This document shows, one piece after another, positions 4,633 to 32,620 of a stretch of 64,000 bases of DNA (within the stretch, counting starts at the first letter, position 1; each line of letters opens with the position of its first letter). Origin of the DNA: Mycobacteriales bacterium. GTDB taxonomy: Bacteria > Actinomycetota > Actinomycetes > Mycobacteriales > SCTD01. The notes under the pieces were generated by a model. That model did not search any database and was not told the DNA's origin. It was given only the letters and a program-made list of their open reading frames with translations. The translations under genes were made by a program, and so were the position numbers. The stretch is from positions 2,516 to 66,515 of the forward strand of contig JBBSKF010000003.1 of assembly GCA_038256525.1 (NCBI GenBank), given 5' to 3'.

Positions 4633-4684
4633 GGTTCCTCCCAGGGAGCTTGCCGGTTCACATAATTGTCCGTACATTAGCGGA

Positions 4685-11631: not shown

Positions 11632-11785
11632 TGAAGCCTCCGGACTCGTGCGGCAACTGGCCATCGCCCACTGTGCCTGCGAGCTGTTGCCGACGCGTGA
11701 CATCGGCGTTGAGCCGGCGTGTCGTCACCGCCGCCGACAACCCGGTCTCGCAGGAACATCAGGACGTGGACCAGGGTTGCGTTAG

Positions 11786-11807
11786 ATACCGTAGGGGGGT
11801 ACGGTGT
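11786..11807. promoter_or_regulatory. CsoR operator ATACCGTAGGGGGGTACGGTGT
   Basis: Perfect inverted repeat ACCGTA/TACGGT flanks a G6 tract, 31 nt upstream of the csoR ATG. It is very similar to the recalled B. subtilis copZA operator. Confidence 0.6.
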
Positions 11808-11837
11808 CGTAACTCGACCGAGACAGGGAGCGCGGAC

Positions 11838-13334: not shown

Positions 13335-13338
<4 letters not shown>
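12397..13338 (+). CDS. secreted/membrane-anchored protein with two repeated His-motif beta-domains, putative extracytoplasmic copper-binding protein
   Basis: An N-terminal hydrophobic anchor is followed by a His/Asp-rich linker (HGGGHDADG). Two ~100-aa repeats then each carry an HVHP motif ([18 protein letters not shown]). The gene lies between copZ and copA. Confidence 0.55.
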
Positions 13339-15650
<2,312 letters not shown>

Positions 15651-15651
15651 G

Positions 15652-16911
15652 TCACGCGGCCGAGTTCTGCGACAGGCGGGCGTCGGCGAGCAGCACGACC
15701 AGGTGCTCCGCGTCAGCACCGACGCCGGAGAAGCGGGCCGAGCCCCACGTCCACTGCCACGGCAAGCCGAGAAAGCTCAGCCCGCGCTCGGACGTCACCC
15801 CGCGGGAGTGGACCGGCAGACCCCGCTCGTCGAAGACCGGCAGCTCGATCCAGCCGTAGTCGGCGCGAAAGCCGATGGCCCACAGCACACTCGTGATCCC
15901 GGATCCAGCGAGAACGAGGCGGGTCGGCTCCTGCTCCGGTTCCCAGACCGGCACGTATCGCGCCTCCTCCGGGGCGACCACGCCGTTCTCGGCGATGTAC
16001 TTGTCGATGCTGTCCTTGATTCCCTCCGAGACCTGGTCGGCGTAGTCGAGCCCCGCGCGCAGGTCCGCGCGGAACCGCAGCTCCCCCTCGACGTAGTCCT
16101 CGAGCAGCCCGTACAGCTGCATCCCGTCCCGGGCGAAGGCGCGCAGGTCGATGTCACGACCACCGTCCCGACCGGTGACGTAGTGATTGGCCCGGGCGGC
16201 CTCGCCGTCGTCGGTGCTCCGCTGGTCCGCGGTCGTGCGGTAGTAGCCGATGTCCTCGAGCCAGGCGACCACGTCACGCCCCCGGTAGCGCCGAGCCACC
16301 CGCGGGGCATCGCCCAGGCACAGGTGCACCCGACGCCCAGCCAGATGCAGGTCCTCCGCGATCTGCGCACCCGACTGGCCGCTACCGACGACGAGCACGT
16401 CACCCGGCGGCAGCTGCTCAGGGTTGCGGTAGTTCTGCGAATGCACCTGCGCCACCGACTCCGGCAGCCGTCCGGCGAACGGCGGCACGATGGGCACTTG
16501 GTAGCCACCGGTGGCCACGATGACGTGGTCGGCGCTGACGCGACCCAGGGACGTACGCAGCAGCAGCCGACCGCTGCCCTCGCGGGTCACCCGCTCGACG
16601 GTCACACCCTCGTGCAGCGGCGGGCCGAACGAGGCGGCGTACCCCTCCAGGTAGGCCACGATCTCGTCCTTCACCATGAACCCGTCCGGGTCGTCACCCG
16701 TGTACTGCCAGCCGGGCAGCCGGCACTGCCAGTTCGGCGTGACCAGGCAGAAGCTGTCCCAGCGCGCCGATCGCCACTGCGAGGCGACTCGGTCGCGCTC
16801 CAGCAGGAGGTGCTCGACCCCCCGTTGGGCCAGGTGCCAGCTGGCCGACAGCCCGGCCTGGCCCGCGCCGATGACGACCACGGGGACCTGCCGACCGTCG
16901 AGCGCGATCAC
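15652..16911 (-). CDS. flavin-dependent oxidoreductase (MSMEG_0569-type, Nit1C cluster)
   Basis: [29 protein letters not shown] plus a second dinucleotide motif [21 protein letters not shown] overlap with the nitrilase gene. Confidence 0.75.
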
Positions 16912-17756
16912 CGGACCGCCTCAGCGACAGCCGGCTTCGGTGTGTAAGCATCCGGGCGGCGGTCGCGTAGATGGTGCATGCCGCGCCGCATCCGATGCAC
17001 CTGCGCGAGGTCGACATCGGCGACGGCGAGCCCCTCGGCGCAACCGGTGGTGGCCAGCACCTCCCCACCCGGGGAGACGACCTTCGCCCGGCCGAGCAGG
17101 GTCATCGAGCCGAAGCTGCCCCACTGGTTGGCCGAGGCGACGAACACCTGGTTCTCCGCGGCCCGCGCCTGGTCGTAGAGGTCGAACAGCCGCACCTGCC
17201 GGTCGTCCTCCATCACCGGCGCCCGGTTCGTCGCCGACAGCGGCCAGCAGGACAGCACCGCCACGAGCTCGGCGCCGTCCATCGCAAGTGCCCGGGCCGA
17301 CTCGGGAAAGGCCTTGTCGTAACAGATGAGCATGCCCAGCCGGCCGACCGGGGTGTCGAAGGCGGCGAAGCAGTCGCCCGCGGAGTATCCGGCATCCTCG
17401 CGCAGCGGCTGGTGCACTTTGCGGTGCTCGCCGTGCACCCCGTCACCGGACAGGCAGATCGCCGTGTTGTAGGTCCGGCCGTCGGCGCCGGCCTCGGCGA
17501 GGCCAAGGCAGACGACCAGCGGCCCCGCGACGGTGCAGAGCCGGTGCACCGCCGGCCCGTCCAGGTCGAAGGCCGGCGGCAACCCACCGTCGAGGGCGGA
17601 GTCGTCGAGGCTGCCGAGATATCCCCCGAGCGCCGCCTCGGGCAGCACGAGCAGGTCCGCGCCCGCCGCGCGCGCCGCACGGCACAGCCGGTCGATCGTC
17701 GTGAAGCACGTCTCGAGGTCTCGCCCGAACGCCGCCGAGGCGGCCGCGACCCTCAT
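16908..17756 (-). CDS. carbon-nitrogen hydrolase / nitrilase (Nit1C-type)
   Basis: [19 protein letters not shown] (Glu), HRKVH (Lys), [10 protein letters not shown] (Cys) form the catalytic triad. ATGA overlap with the upstream gene. Confidence 0.85.
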
Positions 17757-19102
17757 GCCCGCCCCAGCCCCGTGACGGCTCCGGCGATCGCCTCGGTGAG
17801 CTCGCCGTCCGGCCAACGCAGGCGTACGCCCTTACCCTCGACCAGCCGGCCGCACACGGCGGAGCTGGCCGGACCTGCCGGCGGCAGTTCACGTCCCGGC
17901 CGGTCACTGGTCAGCATCGCGAACCCGGGGAAGCAGGTGAGCCAGTCGCCGACGGAGGCGGCGGCCGGCCGCGGGACCGCGGCCACCTCGAGCTCGGCGG
18001 CGCAGCCGCTCGCCTCGGCCAGCATGCCCAGGGTGCCGACGATCCCGGCCATGGACACGTCCTTTGCGCCGTACGGCCGGGCCCGCCCGACGAGGCTGGT
18101 CAGCTGCGCGATCTCCACCCGAGTGCGTCGCGAGCTGGAGTCCCACTGACCGCGGTGGCCGGCCCGCCAGTCGCCACCGAGGTCGGCAGTGAGGGTGACG
18201 TCCTGACCGGGACGGCCGCAGCCCGGAACGGGTGTCGTGGTCGCGCCGAGCGCGGTCACCGACAACGACGACGCCACGCCGAGCGAGGTGTGGCCGCCAA
18301 GGAGCGGCAGAGCGAACGCCGCTGAGCCAGCCCGCAGGCCGGCGAGCACACGGGCGGCGTGCGCTGCGTTGGGTGCGCCGAGCGCGTCGAGTGCACCCAC
18401 CGGCGCCGCCCCCATCGCCGCCAGGTCGTTGGCCCCGACCAGCACGCCGCACCAGCCGGCCCATTCGGGGTCGCGCTCCACCATCGACGGCAGGATGGCG
18501 TCGACGCTTGCGAGCACCGACGAGCCCGGGACCGGCGCTGCGTCGTCCCCGACGAAACCCGGGCCGCCCGGCGAGAGTCCGGCCAACAGGCTGCCGAGTC
18601 CGGCCTTGGTCGCGCCGACCAGGGCCGCCAGCCGGCCGACCGGCCAGCGCATCAGGACGTGTCGGACGCCGGCGACCTCGACGTTGCGCAGGGGGTCCCA
18701 GCCCCATCGGGCGAAAAGCGCTGCGTTGGCTGGCAGCACGGTTGCCTCGAAGCGCAGTGCCCCTCGGCGCTCGGCCTCCGCGCAGGCGGCATCGGCGAGC
18801 GCCCGGCCGGCACCGGTGGCGCCCCGCACGTCCGGCGCGACAACGAGCCGGCCGCCGTGCCACCAGCCGGGTCCGACCTCGTACAGCCGGACTCCCCCGA
18901 CGACGCGATCATGGAGCCGGGCCACCAGCTCTACGGCGTGGTCGTCGTGCTCGTCGCGGTCGGAGCCGGAGAACAGGCCCAACTCGTCGACGAACGCCTG
19001 CCGACGGAGCCGGGAATAGGCGAGCTGCTCCCGCCGGTCCGGTAGCCCGACCAGAAGGCCGTGCCGGGTCGGGGCGAGCGTCTCGCACAGCTGCACACTC
19101 AT
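17753..19102 (-). CDS. GNAT N-acetyltransferase fused to an AIR-synthase-related (PurM-like) domain
   Basis: The N-terminal ~170 aa is GNAT-like (RLRRQAFVDELGLF..VGGVRLY..VAPDVRGATGAGRALA). The C-terminal ~280 aa is PurM/AIRS-like (ANDLAAMGAAPVGALDAL..GGHTS..AKDVSMAGIVGTLGML). ATGA overlap with the radical SAM gene. Confidence 0.7.
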   Translation of the reverse strand: MSVQLCETLAPTRHGLLVGLPDRREQLAYSRLRRQAFVDELGLFSGSDRDEHDDHAVELVARLHDRVVGGVRLYEVGPGWWHGGRLVVAPDVRGATGAGRALADAACAEAERRGALRFEATVLPANAALFARWGWDPLRNVEVAGVRHVLMRWPVGRLAALVGATKAGLGSLLAGLSPGGPGFVGDDAAPVPGSSVLASVDAILPSMVERDPEWAGWCGVLVGANDLAAMGAAPVGALDALGAPNAAHAARVLAGLRAGSAAFALPLLGGHTSLGVASSLSVTALGATTTPVPGCGRPGQDVTLTADLGGDWRAGHRGQWDSSSRRTRVEIAQLTSLVGRARPYGAKDVSMAGIVGTLGMLAEASGCAAELEVAAVPRPAAASVGDWLTCFPGFAMLTSDRPGRELPPAGPASSAVCGRLVEGKGVRLRWPDGELTEAIAGAVTGLGRA

Positions 19103-20163
19103 GCGCCGGCCGCCTGCAGCAGACCGCACGCCCCGCAGGCCGCACAACCGGCCCCCTGGTCGACGCCGCGCATCTCAGCCTTCACGAGCAGCTCGGCGAC
19201 CCGGCGGGTGATACCGGTGACATAGGCGGCGTCCGGTGCCGGGACGTCCGCCGCAAGCGTGCCGTCCATCGGGCGGAAGGGGACGACGAAGGGGTAGACA
19301 CCCATCGCCACGAGCCGGCCGCAGGCTGCCACGGTCTCGTCCGGGTCCTCCCCGAGACCGAGCAGGACGTACGTCGAGACGCGGTTGCGCCCGAAGACCC
19401 GCACCGCCTCGTACCAGGCCTGCTCGTAGCGCTCGATCGACACCTCGGCCTTGCCCGGGGTCCAGCGCCGGCGTACCGCCTCATCGAGGGACTCGATGTG
19501 GATGCCGATTGCCGTGGCCCCCGCGTCATGAAGCCGGCGCAACCAGGCGAGGTCTGCCGGCGGCTCGACCTGCACCTGCACCGGCAGAGCCGGCAGGGCG
19601 TCGTGCAGCGCCGTCACGACGCGGACCAGATGCGCGGCGCCGCGATCGGAGCCGGGCGTCGTACCGGTGGTGAGCACGACCTGCTCGACCCCGTCCAGAG
19701 CCACGGCAGCGCGCGCCACCTCGACCAGCTGTTCCGGCGACTTGACCGCCGGCGTACGGCCCCCGTCGAGCGACTGCTCGATCGCGCAGAACCGGCAACG
19801 GGTCTGCTCGAGCGTGTAGCGGGTGCACGTCTGGATGACCGTGCTGGCGAGCACGGACGTGCCGTGCAGCCGGGCCACCGCCGGGTAGGGCGTCCCGTCC
19901 TCGAAGCACATGTCGTAGAACGTCGGCCGCTCGACCGGCTCCACCTCGAGGTCGAGCAGGAGTCCACCGGGACCGGTGAGCCGACCCTCGACCAGGGCGA
20001 ACGGCGAGTGCGGCGACATGGGCAGCGCGGTGGCGAGACCGCCGAGCCGCAGGTGGCCGTCATCAGACGGTCCAGCCCCACCCGCGCGCCGAACCGGCAT
20101 CTCGACAGACACCGTCCGGACACCGCGGGTGGCAAGCTGGGCCCTCAACTCGAGGGCGTCCAT
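19099..20163 (-). CDS. radical SAM protein (MSMEG_0568-type)
   Basis: TIM-barrel-like radical SAM core with cluster motif CTRYTLEQTRCRFC (Cx9Cx2C), VVLTTGTTPG, and a C-terminal CAACGAC. Confidence 0.75.
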   Translation of the reverse strand: MDALELRAQLATRGVRTVSVEMPVRRAGGAGPSDDGHLRLGGLATALPMSPHSPFALVEGRLTGPGGLLLDLEVEPVERPTFYDMCFEDGTPYPAVARLHGTSVLASTVIQTCTRYTLEQTRCRFCAIEQSLDGGRTPAVKSPEQLVEVARAAVALDGVEQVVLTTGTTPGSDRGAAHLVRVVTALHDALPALPVQVQVEPPADLAWLRRLHDAGATAIGIHIESLDEAVRRRWTPGKAEVSIERYEQAWYEAVRVFGRNRVSTYVLLGLGEDPDETVAACGRLVAMGVYPFVVPFRPMDGTLAADVPAPDAAYVTGITRRVAELLVKAEMRGVDQGAGCAACGACGLLQAAGA

Positions 20164-20691
20164 TCAGAACATGTACGTGCTGTTGACGATGGCGCCCTTG
20201 CGGGCGTAGTGGATGAGCGCGTCCTGGACGTCCAGCGGGTGGGTCGGGATGACGCCCTCGATGAGGTCTTCCTCGCGGGCTCCGTGCAGCGACAAGCCGA
20301 ACCGGCAGCAGTAGACCTTGCCGCCTTCCTTGATGAACGTCGCGAGCGAGTCGTTGATGTTCAGCTCGCCGGGGAAGGCGGCGCTCCCGGTCGTCGGGAA
20401 ACCCCGCGTTGCAAGGCAGTTCAGCGACCCGGGCCCATAGAAGTAGATGGCGGACTCGAAGCCCTTGCGCATCGCGCGGGTCGCCTGCAGGATCGCCACG
20501 AAGCTCACCGAGCTCTCGTGCGCGATGCCGTGCACGAGCGTGAAGTAGCTCTCCCCCTTCTCCGCCTGGTAGTCCGGAAACACCTTCGTCTCGCCGTACA
20601 ACGTCGAGCCGGCGGGCAGCGACGGGTGGGCGATCTCGTTCAGCGAAGTGCTCTCGGTCTCGGTCAGGACGCGCTCGGGGGCCATGGTCAT
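20164..20691 (-). CDS. conserved Nit1C-cluster protein (Sll0783/MSMEG_0572-like, DsrE-like fold suspected)
   Basis: 175 aa, MTMAPERVLTETEST..YFYGPGSLNCLATRGFP..KVYCCRFGLSLHG. AAGGAG lies 9 nt upstream of the ATG at 20691. It directly abuts the radical SAM start codon. Confidence 0.6.
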   Translation of the reverse strand: MTMAPERVLTETESTSLNEIAHPSLPAGSTLYGETKVFPDYQAEKGESYFTLVHGIAHESSVSFVAILQATRAMRKGFESAIYFYGPGSLNCLATRGFPTTGSAAFPGELNINDSLATFIKEGGKVYCCRFGLSLHGAREEDLIEGVIPTHPLDVQDALIHYARKGAIVNSTYMF

Positions 20692-20704
20692 GGGCTGGTT
20701 CTCC

Positions 20705-21547
20705 TTAGATGGGTGCGGGCGTGGTGGGGGTGTCGTAAAGGTCGCAAAAGGTGCGTCGGAAGGCGCGGTCGCCGAGCTCTCCATCGCCGAATGCCGCTGC
20801 GAGCCGGGCAGTCTCGCCGGGAGTGTCGCCCCACGGCTCGTCACTGGCGAACAGCACGCGGTCGTGCCCGATGCCGCGCTGCTCGATCTGGGCAGCGAGC
20901 CACCGCGGCGCGAAGCCGATGGCCCAGGACAGGTCGGTGTAGACGCGCTTGCCGGCCTCGACCCAGTCGAGGAAGCGCCCGCCGCCCAGCTTGATGTGGC
21001 CGCTGGCTCCGCCGCCGAAGTGCACCAGGTGGATCGCGACGTCGTCGCCGTAGTCCTGCACGAGGGTGCCGATGCGGTCGATGTCGCTGGGTCCGCCGGG
21101 CGAGGTGTGCACGTGGACGACCAGGGCGTGCTCGCGGGCGGTGGCAAAGATGCGCTCCAGCCCGGGTCGGCAGTCCGGGTCATCCGGGGCGCCGCCGAGC
21201 AGGAAGGAGAGCTTGAGGGCCCGCACGCCGGTCTCCCCTGCCAGCGCCAGTGCCTGCTCGGTGAGCAACGAGTCGCTCGGCAACGGCGAGGTCCACAGGG
21301 CGCCCAGCACCCGGTCGTCCTTCTGGCAGGCTTCGAGCACCAGCTCGTTGAAGCCGAACGACAGAGCCGGATCCGGCACCCCGTAGTTGGGTAGGACCAA
21401 CGCGCGCTCCACGTCGTCGCGGTCCAGCTGGTCCAGCAGCTCGGCCACCGTGCCGGGTGCCCCCGGGGCTGGGTCGACCGGCGGTCCCCCGTAGAACGGG
21501 AACGCAGGCAGCCGCCCGAGGTGGCGGTGCGCGTCGAAGACCGGCAT
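20705..21547 (-). CDS. amidohydrolase-2 family (TIM-barrel metal-dependent hydrolase)
   Basis: MPVFDAHRHLG..VHVHTSPGG..HLVHFGGG..FASDEPWG (HxH...H...D metal ligand pattern). Confidence 0.7.
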   Translation of the reverse strand: MPVFDAHRHLGRLPAFPFYGGPPVDPAPGAPGTVAELLDQLDRDDVERALVLPNYGVPDPALSFGFNELVLEACQKDDRVLGALWTSPLPSDSLLTEQALALAGETGVRALKLSFLLGGAPDDPDCRPGLERIFATAREHALVVHVHTSPGGPSDIDRIGTLVQDYGDDVAIHLVHFGGGASGHIKLGGGRFLDWVEAGKRVYTDLSWAIGFAPRWLAAQIEQRGIGHDRVLFASDEPWGDTPGETARLAAAFGDGELGDRAFRRTFCDLYDTPTTPAPI

Positions 21548-21581
21548 GAGTTGACCTTGCCCGCTGTGGATTCCGTTCTCG

Positions 21582-22673
21582 TTACCTGTGCGTGACCCTT
21601 TCGTTGCCACGTGTTGCCACGATGTTTCGGTAGACCGCGAGGTGCGCCACGGCAGCCCGCTCCCACGTGAGGGAGCGAGCCAACACCCGCCCCGGCTCGG
21701 GGTTGAGCGGCGGCGCGGACAGTGCAGCGGCGAGCGACGGCGGGTCCACCCCGTAGCGGACGGTGTCGCCGAAGACCTCACGGAACACCGGCAGGTCCCG
21801 CAGCACGACGGGAACGCCGGCCGCCAGCGCCTCCAGCGCCGCGAGGCCGAAGCCCTCCTTCACACTCGGCAGGGCGAAGACGTCGGCGCAGGCCACCAGC
21901 GGCGGCACCTCGTCCTGGCCCAGTGGCCCGAGGATCCGCACGTCGACCCCCAGCTCGGCCACGCGGGCGTCTACCTCGGCGCGGTAGGTGCGGTGGTCGA
22001 ACAACGACTCGCCGCCGCCGACAGCCAGCCGGGCGCCGGGCCTGAGCAGCGCGAGCGCCTCGATCAGGTCGCGGCTGCCCTTGCGCGGCTCGATCCCCCC
22101 GACGGTCACGACGAGCGGGTCGCCGCCCAACCGCTCCCGCCAGCGCCGTCTCAGCTGGGGGTCGACCGTGGCGAAGCGTTCGGCGTCTACGCCGTTGGCG
22201 ACCACCGTCGCGGTGCGCCCCCGGGTGGTGCGCACCTCCTCGGCCACCTGCCTCGAGACGCAGATGAGCACCGGTGGTTCGAGCACGGCCCGCTCGTGGC
22301 AACGCACGAGCGCCGGGGTCGTGAAGCTGTCGAGATGATGCACGGTGCGCAGACAACGCGCCTCGACAGCATTGGCCGCGATGCAGTCCTGGGCATGCAC
22401 GATGTCGTACGCGCGAATGTCGACAGCCGCACCCAGCACGGAGATGGAGCGCCGCACCTTGGCGTCGAGCGACTCCTGCGCCCGGTCCGGCAGTGGGGTG
22501 ACAACAGCGCTCACCCGGGGGTCGAGCGGCCGGAAGAAGGTGCTGTCGCCTGAACGGCCGAGGGCGTGCACGGTGACGTGCTGCCCCAGGTCCGCGAGGG
22601 CCTCGGCCAGTGAGAGCGTGTGCACGACGCTGCCCCGGGGCCGGGTGGAGTAGGTGAGCAGGGCGATGCGCAC
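21582..22673 (-). CDS. GT4-family glycosyltransferase (MSMEG_0565-type)
   Basis: VRIALLTYSTRPRGSVVHTLSLAEAL..PSVKEGFGLAALEALAAG (E-x7-E region). It is the first gene of the minus-strand operon. An alternative GTG start is at 22688. Confidence 0.8.
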   Translation of the reverse strand: MRIALLTYSTRPRGSVVHTLSLAEALADLGQHVTVHALGRSGDSTFFRPLDPRVSAVVTPLPDRAQESLDAKVRRSISVLGAAVDIRAYDIVHAQDCIAANAVEARCLRTVHHLDSFTTPALVRCHERAVLEPPVLICVSRQVAEEVRTTRGRTATVVANGVDAERFATVDPQLRRRWRERLGGDPLVVTVGGIEPRKGSRDLIEALALLRPGARLAVGGGESLFDHRTYRAEVDARVAELGVDVRILGPLGQDEVPPLVACADVFALPSVKEGFGLAALEALAAGVPVVLRDLPVFREVFGDTVRYGVDPPSLAAALSAPPLNPEPGRVLARSLTWERAAVAHLAVYRNIVATRGNERVTHR

Positions 22674-22723
22674 CCCGCACCGTTGCACCGCGATGTTTCG
22701 CCGCGGTAACTAGCCTGCATGGC

Positions 22724-22993
22724 GTGACCACCCCCGAGAGCCGGGCCGCCACCGCTGCGGCGATCGGGGCGTTGACCGACTTCCTGACCGAGACCGAGGC
22801 CGGCTCGCCGCGACCGGTGGGCGCCTACCTGCAGCAGCTGGTCGACGAGGACGGGGTCGGTGCGCTGGCGCAGGGCTACTACGGGCTGCTCAACCTGTCC
22901 GCACTGCTGCTGCCCATGGCGGCGGAGCAGGAGGAGCTCGCGCCTCGCGAGCTGCTGCGGCAGATCGCGCTGATCGTCGCTCGCGACTCCTGA
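22724..22993 (+). CDS. hypothetical protein (89 aa)
   Basis: High GC3 codon usage and no recognisable motif. It is divergent from the Nit1C-like operon. Confidence 0.4.
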   Translation: MTTPESRAATAAAIGALTDFLTETEAGSPRPVGAYLQQLVDEDGVGALAQGYYGLLNLSALLLPMAAEQEELAPRELLRQIALIVARDS

Positions 22994-23003
22994 GCGGGCT
23001 CGG

Positions 23004-24491
23004 TCAGCCCAGGATCGTCTCGGCAGAGGCGCTCGTGACGACGGCTCCGTCGGCCTGAACCCGCACGACCGACTGGGCCTTCGTCACGCCGGTCAGGGCA
23101 AATCGCGACGACACGCTCATGGTGGGGGTGACCGCCGCCGGCAACAGCCCGCCCGACCAGGTGCAGCGGGCCTGGGTGTCCAGGACACAGGTCCACGCGC
23201 TCGACTCCGGCGTGCTGACCGAGACGACGGTCTGTGCCGGACCACCGTCGAAGGCGATGGCCAACGGACGACGCTCGGCCGTCGCGGATCGGTTCGTGAC
23301 CGAGACGGTGTGCTTGCCCGTGGCGCCGAGGGCCGCGCGCGAGGGGCTCAGCAGGGTCACCGCAAGTGGTGGCAGGGCGGTCGGGCTGGGGCTGGGGCTG
23401 GGGCTGGGGCTGGAGGTTGTGCGGCGGAAGCGGTCGCGCAGGGCGGCGCCCATCACGGTGGGCGTGCCCGCGTAGTCGGTGATCATGGCGACCTGGCCTT
23501 GCGCGCAGTCGAAGACTGTCCAGGTCCAGCCGATCACCGACACCCCACGGGTGTCGGCCCAGTCGAGGTAGCCGTTGACGAAGCCGGCTCCGCAGCCGAC
23601 CTCCCCGACCTCACCGGTCACCACCGGCACCTGCGCGGCGACCGGGGCGATCTCCCGCTCCCAGCAGGCCGCCGTGGCGCACTGGCTGTGGTTGTAGACA
23701 TGCACCCCGGCGACCAGCTGACCGGCTGGGTCGACCGGCCGGTAGGCCAGCCACTGGGACAGGTCGTTACCCCAGCCCAGACCGTTGAGGATGATCGGTT
23801 GGCGGGCGCCGGTGCCGCGCACCGCATCGACCAGGCTCTGCATCCCTGCGGCACGCCAGCCCTGCGAGGTCGTGCAGCCATCACGCCAGCACGCCCAGCT
23901 GATGTCATGCGGCTCGTTGTAGACGTCGAACATCACCGCGGGGTCGTCACGGAACGTACTCGCCACTGAGGACCAGAACGCCGGGGAACGCTCCGCGTCC
24001 GCCATCAACGCCTGATCAGTGGCCCGGGCTGCGCCCGCCGCGTTCCAGTGCAGGTCGAGCACCGCGAGCAAGCCCGCGGCATGCAACCGCTGCACATAGC
24101 CCACGATCGCCGAGCGGTACGCCGCCCCGCCGTAGGTCGTCGACACGCCGTTCACACCCAGCCAGCAGTCCTGGTTGAGCGGGACCCGCACCGCGGTGAT
24201 CCCCCAACCGGTCATCACCGCGATCGCCGCGTCATCCACCGGCCCCGAGAAGATCCCCCACCCCTGCACACAGGCATATTCAGTCCCCGAACGGTTCGCC
24301 CCCTGCAACCGCACCGGGCTGCCCGCAGCATCCACCAGCCGGTTGCCCGACACCGTCACCGACAACGGGGCACCAGCCGCACCCGCAACCGACGGCGTCA
24401 CCCCCGCCAGCAACCCAGCCAGCACCGCGACCAGCACACCCACCAGCACGCCACGACGAGACACACCGACCCATCGACCGGCAGCCCACAC
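23004..24491 (-). CDS. secreted GH5 endoglucanase (cellulase family) with Pro/Ser linker and C-terminal beta-domain
   Basis: Signal peptide, then MFDVYNEPH (acid/base Glu) and VVTGEVGE (nucleophile), then the linker SSPSPSPSPSPT. Confidence 0.8.
   Translation of the reverse strand: MWAAGRWVGVSRRGVLVGVLVAVLAGLLAGVTPSVAGAAGAPLSVTVSGNRLVDAAGSPVRLQGANRSGTEYACVQGWGIFSGPVDDAAIAVMTGWGITAVRVPLNQDCWLGVNGVSTTYGGAAYRSAIVGYVQRLHAAGLLAVLDLHWNAAGAARATDQALMADAERSPAFWSSVASTFRDDPAVMFDVYNEPHDISWACWRDGCTTSQGWRAAGMQSLVDAVRGTGARQPIILNGLGWGNDLSQWLAYRPVDPAGQLVAGVHVYNHSQCATAACWEREIAPVAAQVPVVTGEVGEVGCGAGFVNGYLDWADTRGVSVIGWTWTVFDCAQGQVAMITDYAGTPTVMGAALRDRFRRTTSSPSPSPSPSPTALPPLAVTLLSPSRAALGATGKHTVSVTNRSATAERRPLAIAFDGGPAQTVVSVSTPESSAWTCVLDTQARCTWSGGLLPAAVTPTMSVSSRFALTGVTKAQSVVRVQADGAVVTSASAETILG
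23383..23412. repeat. 5 x GGGCTG hexanucleotide tandem repeat (encodes the (SP)n linker of the GH5 protein)
   Basis: Read directly from the sequence. Confidence 0.9.
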
Positions 24492-24608
24492 CCCTTGAGG
24501 AGCACAGCGACCGAAAGGAAACCGGACACCGGGGCACAGACGTCCGCCTGTCCTAAAGAATCATGAGAACACTGGTGCAAACCGGATTACGTAGGGTAAC
24601 CAGCCGCT

Positions 24609-25949
24609 ATGCACACGAGGGGGGACATCTCCACGCCGTCAGGCGCACCGGACGGGGCTGCCGCCGTGCCCGGAGAGCAGCAGCGGCGCCGGGGCACCGG
24701 GCCCTGGCTGCTGGTTCAGGACGTCCAGAGGGCAAAGCACCGCGACCACCTGGCGCCCGGGTGGCTGCTGGTCGCGCTGCTCTCGGTGATCGGTCTGTCG
24801 GCGCTGCTCCACCACCGACGCAGTCGCGTCCCGGCGCTCGAGGTGCCGAGGCAGCGCACCCCGGACCTTCCGCAGACCGGGCTACCGGCGGGTCCCGTCC
24901 GCCGCGAGGTGGCGGTGCTCATCGCCACCCGCAACGGAGCCGACACCCTCGCCTCGACCATCGCCTCGGCCGCCGGGCAGGCAGACGTCTATGTCGTCTC
25001 CGACGGCTCCACCGACGACACCGCGCGCATCGCCGAGCAGAGCGGCGCCAAGGTTCTCGCGCTGTCGGTGAACATCGGCAAGCCGGCCGCGCTCTACCGC
25101 GCCAACCGGCACTTCGGGCTCACCACCGACTACCGCGCGGTCGCCGTGCTCGACGACGACACCGTCATCGGGCCGGAGTTCATCAAGCACTGCTTGGCCG
25201 GGCTGACCGACCGAGTCGCCATCGTGGTCGGCCGGACGATCACGAACTGGACGCGCGAGCACCGTTGGAACCCCTGGCTGGCCGTGCGCGCCTACTCCTA
25301 CTGGAAGTACCAGCTGCTCGTCCGCCGCGGTCAGAGCGCCTTGAACGTCATGAACTGCGTGTCGGGTAGCAACTCGCTCTACCGCTCCTCGGTGCTCGAG
25401 CAGGTGCTGGTCGAGGACACGCCGTACATCGTCGACGACACCTACTGGACGCTCGAGACCCACCGTCGCGGTCTCGGCCGCATCGTCTACGCGCCGAAGG
25501 CCACGGCGCTCATCTGCGACCCGCTGAACGGCCGCGACTGGTACAAGCAGAACCTGCGCTGGCTGTGGGGGACGATGCAGGGGATCCGCGGCCACCGCAT
25601 CGGCACCAAGCGGACGATGTTCGACTTCATGTACATCCTCATGATGCTGGACTGGTTCCTGTACGTCGTGGTCTGGCCGTTCTGGATCGCCGCCGTCTTC
25701 TGGGTCGGCCGGGACCACTGGCCTGTGCTGCTGGCCGTCTACCTGACCGGCTACCTCGTCTGGACCTCGATCGCGGCGATTGCGCTGCGCCGCTGGCGCC
25801 TGGTCCTGCTCACCCCGTTCGTCCTCGTCTTCGACTGGCTCTACCGCGTGAACTTCGCGCACGCGCTGGTCAAAGCCCTCCGGCAGCCGAGGGTCACCTC
25901 ATGCCGGTGGGAGTCCCCTTCCCGCTATGCACAAGGAGCAGCAGCATGA
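24609..25949 (+). CDS. membrane-bound processive GT2 glycosyltransferase (synthase-like)
   Basis: VAVLIATRNGADTL..VVSDGSTDDT, VLDDD (DxD), QNLRWLWG (QxxRW), and N- and C-terminal TM helices. Confidence 0.8.
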   Translation: MHTRGDISTPSGAPDGAAAVPGEQQRRRGTGPWLLVQDVQRAKHRDHLAPGWLLVALLSVIGLSALLHHRRSRVPALEVPRQRTPDLPQTGLPAGPVRREVAVLIATRNGADTLASTIASAAGQADVYVVSDGSTDDTARIAEQSGAKVLALSVNIGKPAALYRANRHFGLTTDYRAVAVLDDDTVIGPEFIKHCLAGLTDRVAIVVGRTITNWTREHRWNPWLAVRAYSYWKYQLLVRRGQSALNVMNCVSGSNSLYRSSVLEQVLVEDTPYIVDDTYWTLETHRRGLGRIVYAPKATALICDPLNGRDWYKQNLRWLWGTMQGIRGHRIGTKRTMFDFMYILMMLDWFLYVVVWPFWIAAVFWVGRDHWPVLLAVYLTGYLVWTSIAAIALRRWRLVLLTPFVLVFDWLYRVNFAHALVKALRQPRVTSCRWESPSRYAQGAAA

Positions 25950-26173
25950 CCGGTCCCACGAACTCAGCCAACGAAGTTGCCGCTCTCGGTACCTCCTTCG
26001 ACATGGGCGGCGGCATGGGAGGCGGTGAGTCGATGGGCTTCGGCGGCGCCGACGTCCTGCCCTTCACCGGTATCAGCACCGTCCCACTGGCCCTCGCCGG
26101 CCTGGTGGCTGCTGTCGTCGGCTCGGTGATGACCCGCCTCGGCCGGGACAAGACGCCGGTCGCCATCGACTGA
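25946..26173 (+). CDS. 75-aa Gly/Met-rich mini-protein ending in LPFTG + TM helix + basic tail
   Basis: MTGPTNSANEVAALGTSFDMGGGMGGGESMGFGGADVLPFTGISTVPLALAGLVAAVVGSVMTRLGRDKTPVAID. AAGGAG lies 7 nt upstream. ATGA overlap with the GT2 stop. It is a paralogue of 42197-42418. Confidence 0.6.
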   Translation: MTGPTNSANEVAALGTSFDMGGGMGGGESMGFGGADVLPFTGISTVPLALAGLVAAVVGSVMTRLGRDKTPVAID

Positions 26174-26198
26174 CCAGTCGACGCGTCCGCCGCCTTGC

Positions 26199-26894
26199 TC
26201 ACGCTCCCGGCGCGCGCAGCTCGTTCACGAGGTCCAGCAGATCGAAGATGATTCCCCGGAGCAGCCGGTAGCGCGCCAGCCCCACAAGCTTCACCACCAA
26301 CGGCACGGTCCGGTCGACCAGCGCGTAGGTCCTTGCCGATTCCGGGGACGCGTCGTGCACCCAATAGAGCACGATTCCCATCTGATAGAGCCACAGCAGC
26401 TCGGGCAGGCTTGCCCGGAGCTCCGGCGGCATCTTCACGCTCGTGGCGCCGTGGACGGCCTCTGCATAGAGCGCGATCGCCAGCGCGCGTGCGGGGGCAG
26501 ACTCGGCGCTGAAGGGGCTCAGTGGACTCTGCGGATCCGCGGCGAAGCGGAAGAACCCGACCGCGAAGTGCTTGTCGGCCTGAATGGTGTCGAGCCGTGC
26601 GCGCAGCACCCCGTGCAGCCGGGCCTCGAGGTCTGTCTCACGGTCGAGGACCGGGCGGGCGGCGGCGACGTGCAGCTCCTGTGACTGGTCGTAGTACTCC
26701 TGCACCAGGTGCTGCTTGCTGGGGTAGTAGTAGTAGGCGTTGCCGACCGACAGGCCGGCCTCCCCGGCGATGATCCGCATCGTGGTGGCTTCGTAGCCGC
26801 GCTCGCGAAACAGCCGCAACGCCGTGTCGACGATGCGCTGACGGGTCTGCTCGCCCTTGGCGGAGGACGCCGGTTCACGCCGGGGTGCAGTCAC
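26199..26894 (-). CDS. TetR-family transcriptional regulator
   Basis: TRQRIVDTALRLFRERGYEATTMRIIAGEAGLSVGNAYYYYPSKQHLV (TetR HTH). Confidence 0.9.
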   Translation of the reverse strand: MTAPRREPASSAKGEQTRQRIVDTALRLFRERGYEATTMRIIAGEAGLSVGNAYYYYPSKQHLVQEYYDQSQELHVAAARPVLDRETDLEARLHGVLRARLDTIQADKHFAVGFFRFAADPQSPLSPFSAESAPARALAIALYAEAVHGATSVKMPPELRASLPELLWLYQMGIVLYWVHDASPESARTYALVDRTVPLVVKLVGLARYRLLRGIIFDLLDLVNELRAPGA

Positions 26895-26934
26895 AGGACT
26901 TCCTTCGGTTGTCGGCTGCCGAGCCGAGAGGTGC

Positions 26935-27351
26935 TCAGCCGGGCATGGCGGGTGCGGACCAGACCGACTCAGGCGGCAGCGGCGGACGTACGGGAGTCAT
27001 GCGGCTCTGCTGGGCACGTCGTCGCAGCGTGTTGAGCACGAACAGGTTAGCCAGGTGCAGGACGCCCAGCACGAGCACGACGGTGCCCACCTTGACCGAC
27101 AGCGCCTCGAGCGCTGACTGGCTGTCGATGACCCGCTCCTCGGTCTTGAGGGCGATCGACACGAAGCCCAGGTTGACGAGGTAGAAGCCGACCACCAGCA
27201 GGTGGTTGACCGCCTGCGCGAGCTCCTCGTCGCCGTCGAAGACATCCAACAGGAACACGCGGCCGTTGCGACGCAGCGTGCTGCCGACCCACAGCGTGAT
27301 GGGGACCGCCAGAGCCAGATAGGCGATGTAGGTGAAGACGATGGGGTTCAT
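26935..27351 (-). CDS. small integral membrane protein (hypothetical)
   Basis: MNPIVFTYIAYLALAVPITLWVG.. with 4 predicted TM segments. GAGGAG RBS is present. It lies upstream of and is co-oriented with the TetR gene. Confidence 0.6.
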   Translation of the reverse strand: MNPIVFTYIAYLALAVPITLWVGSTLRRNGRVFLLDVFDGDEELAQAVNHLLVVGFYLVNLGFVSIALKTEERVIDSQSALEALSVKVGTVVLVLGVLHLANLFVLNTLRRRAQQSRMTPVRPPLPPESVWSAPAMPG

Positions 27352-27367
27352 GGAGCTCTCCTCAGAG

Positions 27368-27380
27368 TTGAACGTGTTCA
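27368..27380. promoter_or_regulatory. palindrome TTGAACGTGTTCA, candidate TetR operator 1
   Basis: TGAAC-GT-GTTCA lies in the divergent intergenic region. It shares the GAACGnGTTC core with 27429-27438. Confidence 0.4.
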
Positions 27381-27428
27381 GACACGAGCAACGTACGGGG
27401 TGGCCTCGTTCTGCGCAAGCATTTTTCC

Positions 27429-27438
27429 GAACGCGTTC
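27429..27438. promoter_or_regulatory. perfect palindrome GAACGCGTTC, candidate TetR operator 2
   Basis: Read directly from the sequence, in an AT-richer stretch 45 nt upstream of the CoA-transferase start. Confidence 0.4.
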
Positions 27439-27482
27439 AAATCTTCTCGACGTACAGTGCCGCAGACCGACTGAGGGGTGAC

Positions 27483-28622: not shown

Positions 28623-28626
28623 CCGG

Positions 28627-29118
28627 TCACCAGCCCCAGGTGCCCGGGGCTCCCTTGAAAGGCCCGACGACATCGTCGGTCACCCACCCCCCGTAGAAGC
28701 CGCCGTCCTGGGCGCGCACCGCCTCCCCGTCGACCGTGCACAGATCCATGCGCCCCGGATAGACGGCGACAGTGTCACGCAGCAGGGCGAACGCAGGCAC
28801 CGGGGCGGGGTAGGTCCAGGCGGCCCGAGTCGCACGCAACCCACCGCCGACCACGTCCAGATAGCTCGCCAGCCCCTTCCACTCGCAGTACGACGTGCCG
28901 CCGCCTGGCTCCAGCGAACCCGGAAGCCAGTCCGGACCCGGCAGATACCAGACCGGCGGGTGACTCGTCTCGAGCACCCGAAACGCCCGCGAGGAGCGGC
29001 CCACCACAACGCCGCCGAGCACGACTGCCACCTCCTTGGACGACACCTCGAAGCGCGGCGGTCTCGGATAGTCCCAGACCGACTCCTGGCCGGGACCGGG
29101 CTGCGCGCGACGTCTCAA
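28627..29118 (-). CDS. DUF427 domain protein
   Basis: ESVWDYPRPPRFE..CEWKGLASYLDV motifs. TTG start. Confidence 0.7.
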   Translation of the reverse strand: MRRRAQPGPGQESVWDYPRPPRFEVSSKEVAVVLGGVVVGRSSRAFRVLETSHPPVWYLPGPDWLPGSLEPGGGTSYCEWKGLASYLDVVGGGLRATRAAWTYPAPVPAFALLRDTVAVYPGRMDLCTVDGEAVRAQDGGFYGGWVTDDVVGPFKGAPGTWGW

Positions 29119-29762: not shown

Positions 29763-29929
29763 GCTGCTGCTCCCTGGTCGTCGTGCTCGATGACGTGTTG
29801 ATCGTCCTGCCAGTCCCCGTGCCCCCGCGCACCCCGAAGGAATCGTACGACCGCGCATCCGGCTTGTGGCGACACGGCCGCTATTGCACATGACTGGCAA
29901 CTAGACGTTCTCTCCCGTAGAATTGCCGC

Positions 29930-32615: not shown

Positions 32616-32620
32616 GGCCG

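What the first reader, a model, noticed from the sequence alone, without database searches (positions are those of the whole stretch)
15652..22688. Complete Nit1C / MSMEG_0565-0572 / sll0783-0787-type operon (function still unresolved) with tight translational coupling
Seen in the sequence: seven minus-strand genes in the order GT4 glycosyltransferase, amidohydrolase-2, DsrE-like 175-aa protein, radical SAM, GNAT-AIRS fusion, nitrilase, flavin oxidoreductase. Their junctions are ATGA/GTGA overlaps or gaps of 0-34 nt.

Established knowledge (recalled): this gene set is the conserved 'Nit1C' cluster defined by Podar and colleagues. It is linked to the nitrogen-starvation response and PHB accumulation in Synechocystis (sll0783) and to cyanide utilisation in Pseudomonas fluorescens NCIMB 11764. 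To my knowledge its substrate and product are unknown.

Inference: it is likely a small-molecule pathway (nitrile or N-rich metabolite) rather than simple detoxification. The extra amidohydrolase, and the absence of an obvious MSMEG_0570-type small protein within the operon, are local variations.
Basis: partly seen in the sequence, partly recalled or inferred. Interest (0 to 1): 0.6.

Follow-up and report, generated by a model that had tools for sequence, protein, structure and literature searches.

The report
Rearranged actinobacterial nitrogen-starvation (gpr/Nit1C-like) operon
The seven genes are real and belong to a known, widely conserved nitrogen-starvation gene cluster of unknown chemistry, but this is the actinobacterial "MSMEG_0565-0572/gpr" relative in a rare shuffled form, not a true Nit1C cluster, so it is a modest variant rather than a discovery.

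Summary
Observation confirmed. Seven minus-strand genes lie at 15652-22673/22688 in the stated order, with junctions of 34, 13, 0, -4, -4 and -4 nt.

Interpretation only partly right. Five proteins pass the cluster-specific NCBIfam models: TIGR04047, 04044, 04043, 04045+04050 and 04046. The "nitrilase" scores 40 bits against a 503-bit cutoff for the Nit6803 model that defines Nit1C. The AIRS-like domain fails the sll0787 model. No MSMEG_0570/NitG homologue exists in the 64 kb.

The locus is the actinobacterial MSMEG_0565-0572 ("gpr") class. In M. smegmatis that cluster is GlnR-induced and linked to peroxide resistance and the NADPH/NADP ratio.

Across 83 related actinobacterial loci, the amidohydrolase (72/83) and the lack of MSMEG_0570 (72/83) are the norm, not local quirks. 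The true local differences are:
- the gene order, with GT first and the flavoprotein last; the full order recurs in one metagenome contig and its first five genes in a truncated MAG contig;
- a single canonical E-K-C C-N hydrolase, where 66 relatives carry an E-K-C plus D-K-D pair;
- the window's strongest GlnR-type site, which sits between GT and the amidohydrolase.

The chemistry remains unresolved. The best guess is a small-molecule pathway built on a DsrE-fold Cys protein and a two-cluster radical SAM enzyme.

The parts
21582..22673 (-). MSMEG_0565-family GT4 glycosyltransferase (ORF can extend to GTG 22688)
   Evidence: TIGR04047 387 bits against cutoff 260; Pfam Glycos_transf_1/Glyco_transf_4. 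Weak similarity to BshA/MshA (54 bits). 37.5% identity to the GT inserted in a Paraburkholderia Nit1C cluster.
20705..21547 (-). Amidohydro_2 (PF04909) metal-dependent hydrolase/decarboxylase-family protein; N-terminal DAHRH motif
   Evidence: Pfam 58 bits against cutoff 26.4; no NCBIfam model. Orthologue present in 72/83 related actinobacterial loci at 65-73% identity.
20164..20691 (-). MSMEG_0572/Sll0783 (NitB) family protein, 175 aa, DsrE/YchN fold with invariant Cys129
   Evidence: TIGR04044 252 bits against cutoff 110. AF2 pLDDT 76; Foldseek top 13 PDB hits are all DsrE/YchN/TusBCD. 83-92% identical in the 80 genome loci, where the neighbouring enzymes are 50-73%. Cys129 (CRFG/AL) is the only Cys invariant from Actinobacteria to Proteobacteria.
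19099..20163 (-). MSMEG_0568-family radical SAM enzyme with variant CX9CX2C motif and C-terminal CX2CX2C motif
   Evidence: TIGR04043 443 bits against cutoff 304. The only PDB sequence relative is lipoyl synthase 2, E = 7e-4. All six Cys are invariant across phyla.
17753..19102 (-). GNAT N-acetyltransferase fused to a PurM/AIRS-like ATP-utilising domain (MSMEG_0567 type)
   Evidence: TIGR04045 102 bits (cutoff 68) and TIGR04050 423 bits (cutoff 312). Fails TIGR04049 at 159 against 321. Nearest solved relatives are ThiL. 58% identity to Rhodococcus MSMEG_0567-type, 36% to Klebsiella NitF.
16908..17756 (-). Carbon-nitrogen hydrolase with intact E40-K113-C145 triad; not a branch-1 nitrilase
   Evidence: Pfam CN_hydrolase 142 bits. 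TIGR04048 only 40 bits against cutoff 503. PDB neighbours are PH0642, carbamoylases and Nit2. Triad and mosaic A/B paralogue signature.
15652..16911 (-). MSMEG_0569 (NitH) family flavin-dependent oxidoreductase, two Rossmann motifs
   Evidence: TIGR04046 630 bits against cutoff 498. Nearest structures are type II FMOs 4usr/4a9w. 58% identity to Klebsiella NitH.
21570..21629 (-). Candidate GlnR operator: six phased pentamers GAAAC/GCAAC/GCAAC/GTCAC/GTAAC/GGAAT (spacing 11, 10, 11, 11, 11). It overlaps the non-conserved 3' tail of GT and ends 22 nt before the amidohydrolase ATG.
   Evidence: CGAAACATCGTGGCAACA (21612-21629) is the top hit of the whole window with a PWM built from the 52 listed M. 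smegmatis ChIP-seq GlnR sites. It scores 20.8 bits (training maximum 21.2), and 0 of 100 shuffles reach it. The top PWM hit of L081 and of L088 falls at the same GT|AH2 position.
22694..22711 (-). Second candidate GlnR box AGTTAC-n6-GAAACA, 20 nt upstream of GT start 22673
   Evidence: Second-best PWM hit in the window, 13.7 bits. Sole match to GTNAC-N6-GAAAC in 64 kb, with 0.21 expected. Weaker counterparts in L088 (10.9) and L081 (9.2).
22724..22993 (+). Divergent 89-aa ORF of unknown function (association uncertain)
   Evidence: Gene-like GC1/GC2/GC3 pattern of 0.77/0.54/0.86. 92% amino-acid identity at the same position in L081. No Pfam hit. Absent from the other 80 loci.

Best explanation
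**Identity (shown)**
This is a seven-gene operon of the actinobacterial MSMEG_0565-0572 ('gpr') class, the sister of Nit1C. It is in a rare permuted form: GT, Amidohydro_2, DsrE-fold protein, radical SAM, GNAT-AIRS, C-N hydrolase, flavoprotein. It lacks MSMEG_0570 and lacks the D-K-D hydrolase paralogue that most relatives carry.

**Regulation (inferred from sequence plus M. smegmatis experiments)**
The operon is probably switched on by GlnR under nitrogen limitation. The main candidate operator lies just upstream of the amidohydrolase gene. A weaker one lies upstream of GT. The tightly coupled unit is therefore AH2 to FMO, with GT attached in front.

**Mechanism (inferred, low certainty)**
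The cluster most likely tailors an endogenous small molecule rather than importing and degrading one.
- The radical SAM enzyme carries two Fe-S cluster motifs and is distantly lipoyl-/biotin-synthase-like. It would work with the highly expressed DsrE-fold protein, whose single invariant Cys sits where DsrE/TusD carry a persulfide, in a radical and possibly sulfur-inserting step.
- The always-adjacent GNAT and PurM-like ATP-dependent domain would acetylate and activate an amide or carboxyl group.
- The C-N hydrolase would then cleave the resulting amide or carbamoyl-type bond. In true Nit1C the partner is a nitrilase and the AIRS protein belongs to a different subfamily.
- The NAD(P)H flavoprotein would oxidise a heteroatom, and the GT4 enzyme would add a sugar.
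For: **Identity**
- Cluster-specific HMMs pass for GT, D572, rSAM, GNAT+C-terminal domain and FMO.
- Comparison covered 83 actinobacterial loci, a Rhodococcus plasmid, and Klebsiella, Agrobacterium, Acinetobacter and Paraburkholderia Nit1C clusters.
- The same full order occurs in L081. L088 shows GT-AH2-D572-rSAM and a partial GNAT-AIRS before its contig ends.

**Regulation**
- In M. smegmatis there is a GlnR ChIP peak at MSMEG_0572, with 263-fold (0572) and 26- to 110-fold (0567-0571) GlnR-dependent induction (PMC3662644).
- The gpr deletion is peroxide-sensitive and the cluster raises NADPH/NADP (PMC6039565).
- The two best PWM hits in the window are the two upstream sites, and the position is conserved in L081 and L088.
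- A conserved 41-nt GlnR-like operator lies upstream of about 70 of the 72 canonical clusters examined.

**Mechanism**
- DsrE fold; universal Cys129 and six universal rSAM Cys; LipS2/LipA as the only PDB and NCBIfam neighbours.
- rSAM-GNAT-AIRS is contiguous in every architecture seen. The AIRS subfamily and the hydrolase type switch together between Nit1C and actinobacterial clusters.
- No transporter is conserved next to the cluster in the neighbourhoods whose gene tables were inspected.
Against: - No experiment or metabolite supports any chemical step.
- The LipA/LipS2 similarity is weak (22-35 bits).
- The alignment of Cys129 with the DsrE/TusD active Cys rests on secondary-structure position and recalled knowledge, not on a printed structural alignment.
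- The AIRS/hydrolase co-variation amounts to only two phylogenetic events.
- GlnR binding is predicted only. The upstream-of-GT box is poorly conserved in L081, and no -10/-35 or transcription start could be assigned.
- Membership of the nitrogen-starvation regulon and the presence of two hydrolases fit an ammonia-releasing catabolic role about as well.
- TauE and persulfide-dioxygenase genes near the window cluster are not enriched near other clusters.
Confidence: 0.55

Rival explanations
1. Nitrogen-scavenging catabolic pathway. Under GlnR control, the cluster breaks down an endogenous or environmental N-containing compound. The C-N hydrolase and the Amidohydro_2 enzyme release ammonium, and the other enzymes prepare the substrate.
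For: - All known regulators of this cluster family are nitrogen-starvation regulators: GlnR, NtcA (PMC5714215 listed) and a sigma-54 NitA.
- Pseudomonas Nit1C is required for growth on cyanide or nitriles as N source.
- The M. smegmatis gpr mutant needs more nitrogen to form biofilms.
- The window has two hydrolases with intact catalytic motifs.
Against: - A glycosyltransferase, a GNAT, an ATP-dependent PurM-like domain and a two-cluster radical SAM enzyme are atypical for catabolism.
- No uptake transporter is conserved beside the cluster in the neighbourhoods inspected.
- NCBI curators tag the family models as biosynthetic.
- The NADPH/NADP and peroxide phenotypes are not obviously explained.
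Confidence: 0.3
2. One reading: a complete Nit1C cluster whose nitrilase hydrolyses a nitrile, giving cyanide or nitrile assimilation as in Pseudomonas.
For: NitB, NitD, NitE and NitH homologues pass their family models. The hydrolase belongs to the nitrilase superfamily.
Against: - The hydrolase fails TIGR04048 by more than 460 bits. It is 24% identical to NitC and groups with amidases and carbamoylases.
- The NitF-type model is failed.
- NitG is absent.
- The original definition restricts Nit1C to subfamily-1 nitrilases.
Confidence: 0.08
3. The DsrE-fold protein is itself the substrate or scaffold. This could be a protein-derived cofactor or a carrier-tethered pathway, analogous to mycofactocin or LysW systems, processed by the radical SAM enzyme, hydrolases, flavoprotein and GT.
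For: - D572 is far more conserved than the enzymes: 83-92% against 50-73%.
- Its N-terminal 46 residues are low-confidence in AF2 yet rich in invariant residues.
- It is the most strongly induced gene in M. smegmatis.
- The enzyme set (rSAM, flavoenzyme, amidohydrolase, GT) resembles mycofactocin maturation (recalled knowledge).
Against: - The N-terminal segment is shortened and only weakly conserved in proteobacterial NitB.
- The whole folded domain is conserved too.
- There is no recognisable leader/core organisation or peptidase.
- The low pLDDT may simply reflect a shallow alignment.
Confidence: 0.05
4. Selenocysteine read-through fuses the hydrolase to the flavoprotein, as proposed for MSMEG_0571-0569 in M. 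smegmatis.
For: The hydrolase stop codon is TGA. The model was suggested in PMC6039565.
Against: In the window, the TGA overlaps the flavoprotein GTG in a different frame (GTGA), so read-through would not join the two ORFs. No MSMEG_0570 lies between them.
Confidence: 0.02

Closest known systems
M. smegmatis gpr cluster MSMEG_0565-0572 (Yang et al. 2018, PMC6039565; GlnR regulon, Jenkins et al. 2013, PMC3662644)
   Same: - Same protein families for GT, the fused GNAT-AIRS (MSMEG_0567 type), radical SAM, flavoprotein and DsrE-fold protein.
- A non-nitrilase C-N hydrolase.
- An actinobacterial host.
- GlnR-type sites upstream.
   Different: - Order differs. M. smegmatis has 0572, CNH, 0570, FMO, rSAM, GNAT-AIRS, CNH, GT.
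- The window has no MSMEG_0570 and only one hydrolase.
- The window has an added Amidohydro_2 gene and places GT first.
Canonical 8-gene actinobacterial arrangement FMO-AH2-D572-rSAM-GNAT_AIRS-CNH(E-K-C)-CNH(D-K-D)-GT (60 of 83 loci here; no published name known to me)
   Same: - The same core AH2-D572-rSAM-GNAT_AIRS-CNH in the same order.
- Amidohydro_2 present and MSMEG_0570 usually absent.
- A GlnR-like operator about 22 nt before the first coupled gene.
   Different: - FMO and GT have swapped ends.
- The D-K-D paralogue is missing.
- The single hydrolase carries a mosaic of A-type and B-type signature residues.
- The operator lacks the conserved TGTTCCGGATGAAAC core.
Nit1C (nitBCDEFGH; Podar et al. 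2005, PMC1199592; Pseudomonas, Klebsiella plasmids, Synechocystis sll0783-0787)
   Same: - Homologous NitB (44% identity), NitD (46%), NitE domain and NitH (58%).
- Nitrogen-limitation control.
- Unknown product.
   Different: - Nit1C has a Nit6803-family branch-1 nitrilase, a separate sll0787-type AIRS protein and NitG. Typically it has no amidohydrolase, and a GT only in some Betaproteobacteria.
- The window fails all three defining models.
Mycothiol/bacillithiol biosynthesis (MshA/BshA GT4, deacetylase, ATP-dependent ligase, MshD GNAT): an analogy only
   Same: - A GT4 enzyme with weak BshA/MshA similarity, a metal hydrolase, an ATP-using enzyme and a GNAT occur in one pathway.
- The gpr phenotype relates to peroxide and redox balance.
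   Different: - There is no homology beyond superfamily level.
- There is no Cys ligase.
- Radical SAM, DsrE-fold, flavoprotein and C-N hydrolase components have no counterpart.

Membership tests
Nit1C (Podar 2005) | Subfamily-1 / Nit6803-family nitrilase (TIGR04048) | tested here: not met
   40.4 bits against cutoff 502.6. 24% identity to Klebsiella NitC. 3wuy scores only 35 bits, while carbamoylase and PH0642 hits reach 70-84 bits.
Nit1C (Podar 2005) | ORF1/NitB YchN-like protein (TIGR04044) | tested here: met
   251.8 bits against cutoff 109.85; DsrE/YchN fold.
Nit1C (Podar 2005) | NitD radical SAM (TIGR04043) | tested here: met
   443.5 bits against cutoff 303.7.
Nit1C (Podar 2005) | NitE GNAT (TIGR04045) | tested here: met
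   101.8 bits against cutoff 68.45, as the N-terminal domain of a fusion.
Nit1C (Podar 2005) | NitF sll0787-family AIR-synthase-like protein (TIGR04049) | tested here: not met
   159.2 bits against cutoff 321.3. The domain instead passes TIGR04050 at 423.5 against 312.2.
Nit1C (Podar 2005) | NitG / MSMEG_0570-family small protein (TIGR04042) | tested here: not met
   tblastn of Rhodococcus and Klebsiella members against the whole window gives a best E of 2.8. The same queries find 11 of the other loci at E = 1e-17 to 1e-27.
Nit1C (Podar 2005) | NitH flavoprotein (TIGR04046) | tested here: met
   630.5 bits against cutoff 498.35.
MSMEG_0565-0572 / gpr cluster | MSMEG_0565-family glycosyltransferase (TIGR04047) | tested here: met
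   387 bits against cutoff 259.85.
MSMEG_0565-0572 / gpr cluster | Fused GNAT + MSMEG_0567 C-terminal domain (TIGR04045 + TIGR04050) | tested here: met
   Both pass. 58% identity to the Rhodococcus orthologue.
MSMEG_0565-0572 / gpr cluster | Eight ORFs including MSMEG_0570 and two C-N hydrolases (0571, 0566) | tested here: not met
   Seven ORFs, no MSMEG_0570, and one hydrolase with no paralogue elsewhere in the 64 kb.
MSMEG_0565-0572 / gpr cluster | GlnR binding upstream and induction on nitrogen limitation | tested here: inconclusive
   In silico only. The best and second-best hits of a ChIP-derived GlnR PWM lie upstream of AH2 and GT, and the position is conserved in L081 and L088. Binding and expression are not testable with these tools.
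MSMEG_0565-0572 / gpr cluster | Confers peroxide resistance / raises NADPH:NADP | not testable with these tools
   Phenotype known only for M. smegmatis (PMC6039565).
DsrE/DsrF/YchN fold family (for the 175-aa protein) | DsrE-like alpha/beta fold | tested here: met
   Foldseek PDB ranks 1-13 are all DsrE/YchN/TusBCD/DsrEFH, with E = 8e-6 to 5e-3 and target TM up to 0.82. Pfam PF02635 is sub-threshold at 17.6 against 22.7.
DsrE/DsrF/YchN fold family (for the 175-aa protein) | Active-site cysteine used as persulfide carrier | tested here: inconclusive
   Cys129 is invariant across phyla and sits at the strand 125-129 / helix 130-135 junction. Equivalence to DsrE/TusD Cys78 is recalled, not aligned structurally here.

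The most novel reading that the evidence does not exclude
The DsrE-fold Cys protein and the two-cluster radical SAM enzyme form a sulfur-insertion module. Together with the GT4, metal hydrolase, ATP-dependent AIRS-like domain, GNAT and flavoprotein, they would make a previously unknown nitrogen-starvation-induced, glycosylated sulfur metabolite: a new low-molecular-weight thiol or redox cofactor. This would explain the shared NADPH/NADP and peroxide phenotypes of the M. smegmatis gpr and Synechocystis sll0783 mutants.
Probability: 0.12. Interest if true: 0.8.

Novelty: new variant of a known kind. Interest (0 to 1): 0.35.

Why it matters
The Nit1C/gpr family is one of the most widely conserved bacterial gene clusters whose chemistry is still unknown. 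It is tied to nitrogen starvation, cyanide use, redox balance and peroxide tolerance. It also sits on hundreds of Klebsiella plasmids.

This locus does not solve that problem. It is a minimal natural variant: one canonical hydrolase, no MSMEG_0570 and no D-K-D paralogue. That shows which parts are dispensable.

The comparison gives concrete handles for experiments:
- the invariant Cys129;
- the six invariant radical-SAM cysteines;
- the joint switch of AIRS subfamily and hydrolase type;
- the E-K-C/D-K-D hydrolase pair;
- the predicted GlnR operators.

Tried and rejected
- **Strict Nit1C membership.** Rejected by the HMM cutoffs.
- **MSMEG_0570 elsewhere in the window.** Rhodococcus and Klebsiella queries found nothing.
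- **A second C-N hydrolase or other paralogues elsewhere in the 64 kb.** None found.
- **The conserved 41-nt operator of canonical clusters as a PWM.** It does not match the window: the best score near the operon is -32.6, rank 981. That operator form is therefore absent here. The ChIP-derived GlnR PWM was the informative test.
- **Sulfur-gene neighbourhood support.** TauE and the persulfide dioxygenase-rhodanese fusion lie at 3.3-6.7 kb in the window. They are not enriched near other clusters, with hits in 3 of about 90 loci (L091 and L064 for TauE, L019 for the PDO-rhodanese fusion).
- **Assigning the single hydrolase to paralogue A or B.** The result is ambiguous. It is nearest to A by distance, basal to B in the NJ tree, and mosaic at signature columns.
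- **Selenocysteine read-through fusion.** Rejected on reading frame.
- **Riboswitch or other RNA upstream.** No Rfam hit.
- **Sigma-70 promoter and terminator scan.** Uninformative.
- **Sequence search of the PDB for D572.** Nothing found. Only the fold search worked.
- **Literature search for a resolved product.** Terms were Nit1C, sll078x, MSMEG_056x-057x and the TIGR numbers. None found.

Full report
**1. Observation**

The window is about 70% G+C. ORF listing and direct reading of the junctions give seven co-oriented minus-strand genes.

| Gene | Coordinates | Note |
|---|---|---|
| GT4 glycosyltransferase | 21582-22688 | true start probably GTG 22673 |
| Amidohydro_2 (AH2) | 20705-21547 | |
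| 175-aa protein (D572) | 20164-20691 | |
| Radical SAM (rSAM) | 19099-20163 | |
| GNAT-AIRS fusion | 17753-19102 | |
| C-N hydrolase (CNH) | 16908-17756 | |
| Flavin oxidoreductase (FMO) | 15652-16911 | |

The junctions are:
- GT|AH2: 34 nt.
- AH2|D572: 13 nt, with an AAGGAG ribosome-binding site.
- D572|rSAM: 0 nt (TGAATG).
- rSAM|GNAT-AIRS: ATGA overlap.
- GNAT-AIRS|CNH: ATGA overlap.
- CNH|FMO: GTGA overlap.

The flavoprotein stop codon and the stop codon of a convergent copper P-type ATPase (13335-15650) are 1 nt apart.

**2. Family tests**

Results against NCBIfam:

| Model | Protein | Bits | Cutoff | Result |
|---|---|---|---|---|
| TIGR04047 | GT | 387 | 260 | pass |
| TIGR04044 | D572 | 252 | 110 | pass |
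| TIGR04043 | rSAM | 443 | 304 | pass |
| TIGR04045 | GNAT domain | 102 | 68 | pass |
| TIGR04050 | AIRS-like domain | 423 | 312 | pass |
| TIGR04046 | FMO | 630 | 498 | pass |
| TIGR04048 (Nit6803 nitrilase) | CNH | 40 | 503 | fail |
| TIGR04049 (sll0787) | AIRS-like domain | 159 | 321 | fail |

The amidohydrolase has only a generic Pfam hit, PF04909.

The hydrolase keeps an E40-K113-C145 triad. Its nearest solved relatives are PH0642, N-carbamoyl amidohydrolases and Nit2. Nit6803 itself scores only 35 bits.

Nit1C was defined as restricted to subfamily-1 nitrilases plus six fixed partner genes (PMC1199592). Annotated Nit1C clusters on Klebsiella, Agrobacterium and Acinetobacter plasmids show NitB, Nit6803 nitrilase, rSAM, GNAT, sll0787-type AIRS, MSMEG_0570 and FMO. 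A Paraburkholderia cluster adds a GT between NitF and NitG.

The window therefore fails three defining features of Nit1C and is not a member. It does belong to the same broader neighbourhood family.

**3. What it is**

A genome scan with the 175-aa protein returned 80 loci, all from Actinomycetota. With metagenome contigs added, 60 of 83 loci share one arrangement: FMO, AH2, D572, rSAM, GNAT-AIRS, CNH, CNH, GT.

- Amidohydro_2 occurs in 72 of 83 loci.
- MSMEG_0570 occurs in only 11 of 83.

Other arrangements exist:
- A Rhodococcus plasmid has D572, rSAM, GNAT-AIRS, CNH, 0570, FMO, CNH, GT.
- M. smegmatis has 0572, CNH, 0570, FMO, rSAM, GNAT-AIRS, CNH, GT.

The window's order (GT first, FMO last, one hydrolase) recurs in full only in L081. 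L081 is a metagenome contig about 88% identical in nucleotides and syntenic with the window. L088, a contig from a 'Mycobacteriales bacterium' MAG, shows GT, AH2, D572, rSAM and a partial GNAT-AIRS before it ends.

The 80 genome loci are the best of 545 confirmed matches, so rarity is relative to that sample.

The two tandem hydrolases of the canonical clusters are not equivalent. Paralogue A has E-K-C in 66 of 66 cases. Paralogue B has D-K-D in 66 of 66 cases.

The window keeps only a canonical E-K-C enzyme. At 29 paralogue-discriminating columns it is A-like at residues 18-149 (apart from position 37), B-like at 166-221 (apart from position 209), and A-like again at 238-265. This may reflect an ancestral-like or homodimeric form. 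That reading is an inference.

**4. Regulation**

In M. smegmatis, GlnR binds upstream of MSMEG_0572. Under nitrogen limitation, MSMEG_0567-0572 are induced 26- to 263-fold in a GlnR-dependent manner (PMC3662644). Deleting the cluster causes peroxide sensitivity, and expressing it raises NADPH/NADP (PMC6039565).

I built a position weight matrix (PWM) from the 52 listed ChIP-seq sites and scanned the window.

- The best of about 128,000 positions is CGAAACATCGTGGCAACA at 21612-21629 on the minus strand.
  - It scores 20.8 bits, against a training maximum of 21.2.
  - None of 100 shuffles reaches that score.
  - It lies in the non-conserved 3' tail of GT.
  - It heads six pentamers phased at about 11 nt, which end 22 nt before the amidohydrolase ATG.
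- The second-best hit is AGTTACCGCGGCGAAACA at 22694-22711, 20 nt before the GT start.
  - It is the only GTNAC-N6-GAAAC match in the window, where 0.21 matches are expected.

In L081 and in L088 the top PWM hit of the whole locus also lies between GT and AH2.

Canonical clusters carry a conserved 41-nt operator, GTAAC-N6-tGTTCCGGAtGAAAC-N6-GGAAAT, upstream of their first gene. It is found in about 70 of the 72 clusters examined. The window lacks that form.

The tightly coupled unit is therefore most likely AH2 to FMO behind a GlnR-type operator. GT sits in front of it behind a weaker site. Co-transcription of GT with the rest cannot be decided here.

**5. Mechanistic clues**

- **D572.** It is the most conserved protein, at 83-92% identity where its neighbours are 50-73%. 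Pseudomonas workers noted the same for NitB. The AF2 model has pLDDT 76, and the 13 best PDB matches are all DsrE/YchN/TusBCD. One cysteine, Cys129 in the motif CRFG/AL, is invariant from Actinobacteria to Proteobacteria.
- **Radical SAM enzyme.** It has an unusual CX9CX2C motif and a C-terminal CX2CX2C motif. All six cysteines are invariant. Its only sequence neighbours are lipoyl synthases, and those matches are weak.
- **Gene adjacency.** rSAM, GNAT and AIRS are contiguous in every architecture seen.
- **Co-variation.** The AIRS subfamily and the hydrolase type change together between Nit1C and the actinobacterial clusters. This suggests consecutive steps, but it rests on only two lineages.
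- **Flavoprotein.** It resembles type II FMOs.
- **GT.** It is weakly BshA/MshA-like.
- **Transport.** No transporter is conserved beside the cluster in the neighbourhoods whose gene tables were inspected.

From these clues I infer a pathway acting on an endogenous small molecule, possibly with a sulfur-inserting radical step. A nitrogen-scavenging catabolic role is nearly as plausible.

**6. Literature status**

No paper in the searched library assigns a substrate or product to this cluster family. Statements from 2021 and 2024 say the role remains obscure.

**7. Verdict**

This is a real, correctly described cluster of a known but biochemically unsolved family. 'Complete Nit1C' is a misfiling. 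It is a rearranged, reduced variant of the actinobacterial gpr-type cluster. Interest is moderate to low. The useful products are the comparative handles listed above, not a new system.

Noticed in passing
L001:13798-14613, L082:13793-14623 and equivalents in 66 loci: The second of two tandem C-N hydrolase genes in canonical actinobacterial clusters has Asp in place of both the catalytic Glu and the catalytic Cys (D-K-D, 66 of 66). The first keeps E-K-C (66 of 66). This is a conserved non-canonical or pseudo-enzyme partner, and the window lacks it.
   Followed up: partly
About 60-380 nt upstream of the flavoprotein gene in L001-L083: A strongly conserved 41-nt operator, GTAAC-N6-tGTTCCGGAtGAAAC-N6-GGAAAT, precedes about 70 of the 72 canonical clusters examined. 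When MSMEG_0570 is present, the operator lies upstream of that gene.
   Followed up: partly
window 11685-11825: A second group of GlnR-PWM hits: 13.5 bits at 11685-11702 (-), 12.6 bits at 11808-11825 (+) and 10.4 bits at 11797-11814 (+). They lie between PEP carboxylase (8525-11272) and an HMA-domain protein ORF. The target gene was not identified.
   Followed up: no
window 22724-22993 (+): An 89-aa ORF divergent from the operon has gene-like codon GC and 92% amino-acid identity at the same position in L081. It has no Pfam hit and no homologue in the other 80 loci.
   Followed up: partly
window 15650-15654: The flavoprotein stop codon and the stop codon of the convergent copper P-type ATPase are separated by a single base. 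This leaves no intergenic room for a terminator.
   Followed up: no
plasmid collection; e.g. L085 = NZ_CP087641.1 99594-120079: The NitB family, and with it a complete Nit1C cluster, occurs on 516 plasmid records. These include 374 Klebsiella and 30 E. coli plasmids, mostly 130-300 kb IncFIB/IncHI1B types. The cluster is flanked by a MocR-like PLP regulator and an AMP-binding protein.
   Followed up: partly
L020, L044, L050, L068, L079 (Pseudonocardia): Reduced clusters hold only FMO, D572 and one or two C-N hydrolases, with no radical SAM or GNAT-AIRS genes. They still carry the GlnR-like operator. Pseudonocardia acidicola has two D572 loci (L023, L029).
   Followed up: no
L081:8130-8917: The amidohydrolase orthologue in the closest relative aligns in two frames (residues 1-41 and 58-279) and was called as 211 aa. 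This is a frameshift, a pseudogene or an assembly error.
   Followed up: no
window 23004-25949 compared with L081: Relative to the syntenic contig L081, the window has extra DNA next to the operon. It includes a secreted GH5 cellulase-like gene (23004-24491, -) and a GT2 gene (24609-25949, +). The matching blocks of L081 map to 25184-33092 in rearranged order.
   Followed up: no
window 3286-6686: A metallo-beta-lactamase-rhodanese fusion (persulfide-dioxygenase-like, 3286-5052, -) and a TauE/SafE sulfite-exporter-family gene (5394-6686, +) lie 9-12 kb from the operon. Such genes are not enriched near the cluster in other genomes.
   Followed up: yes
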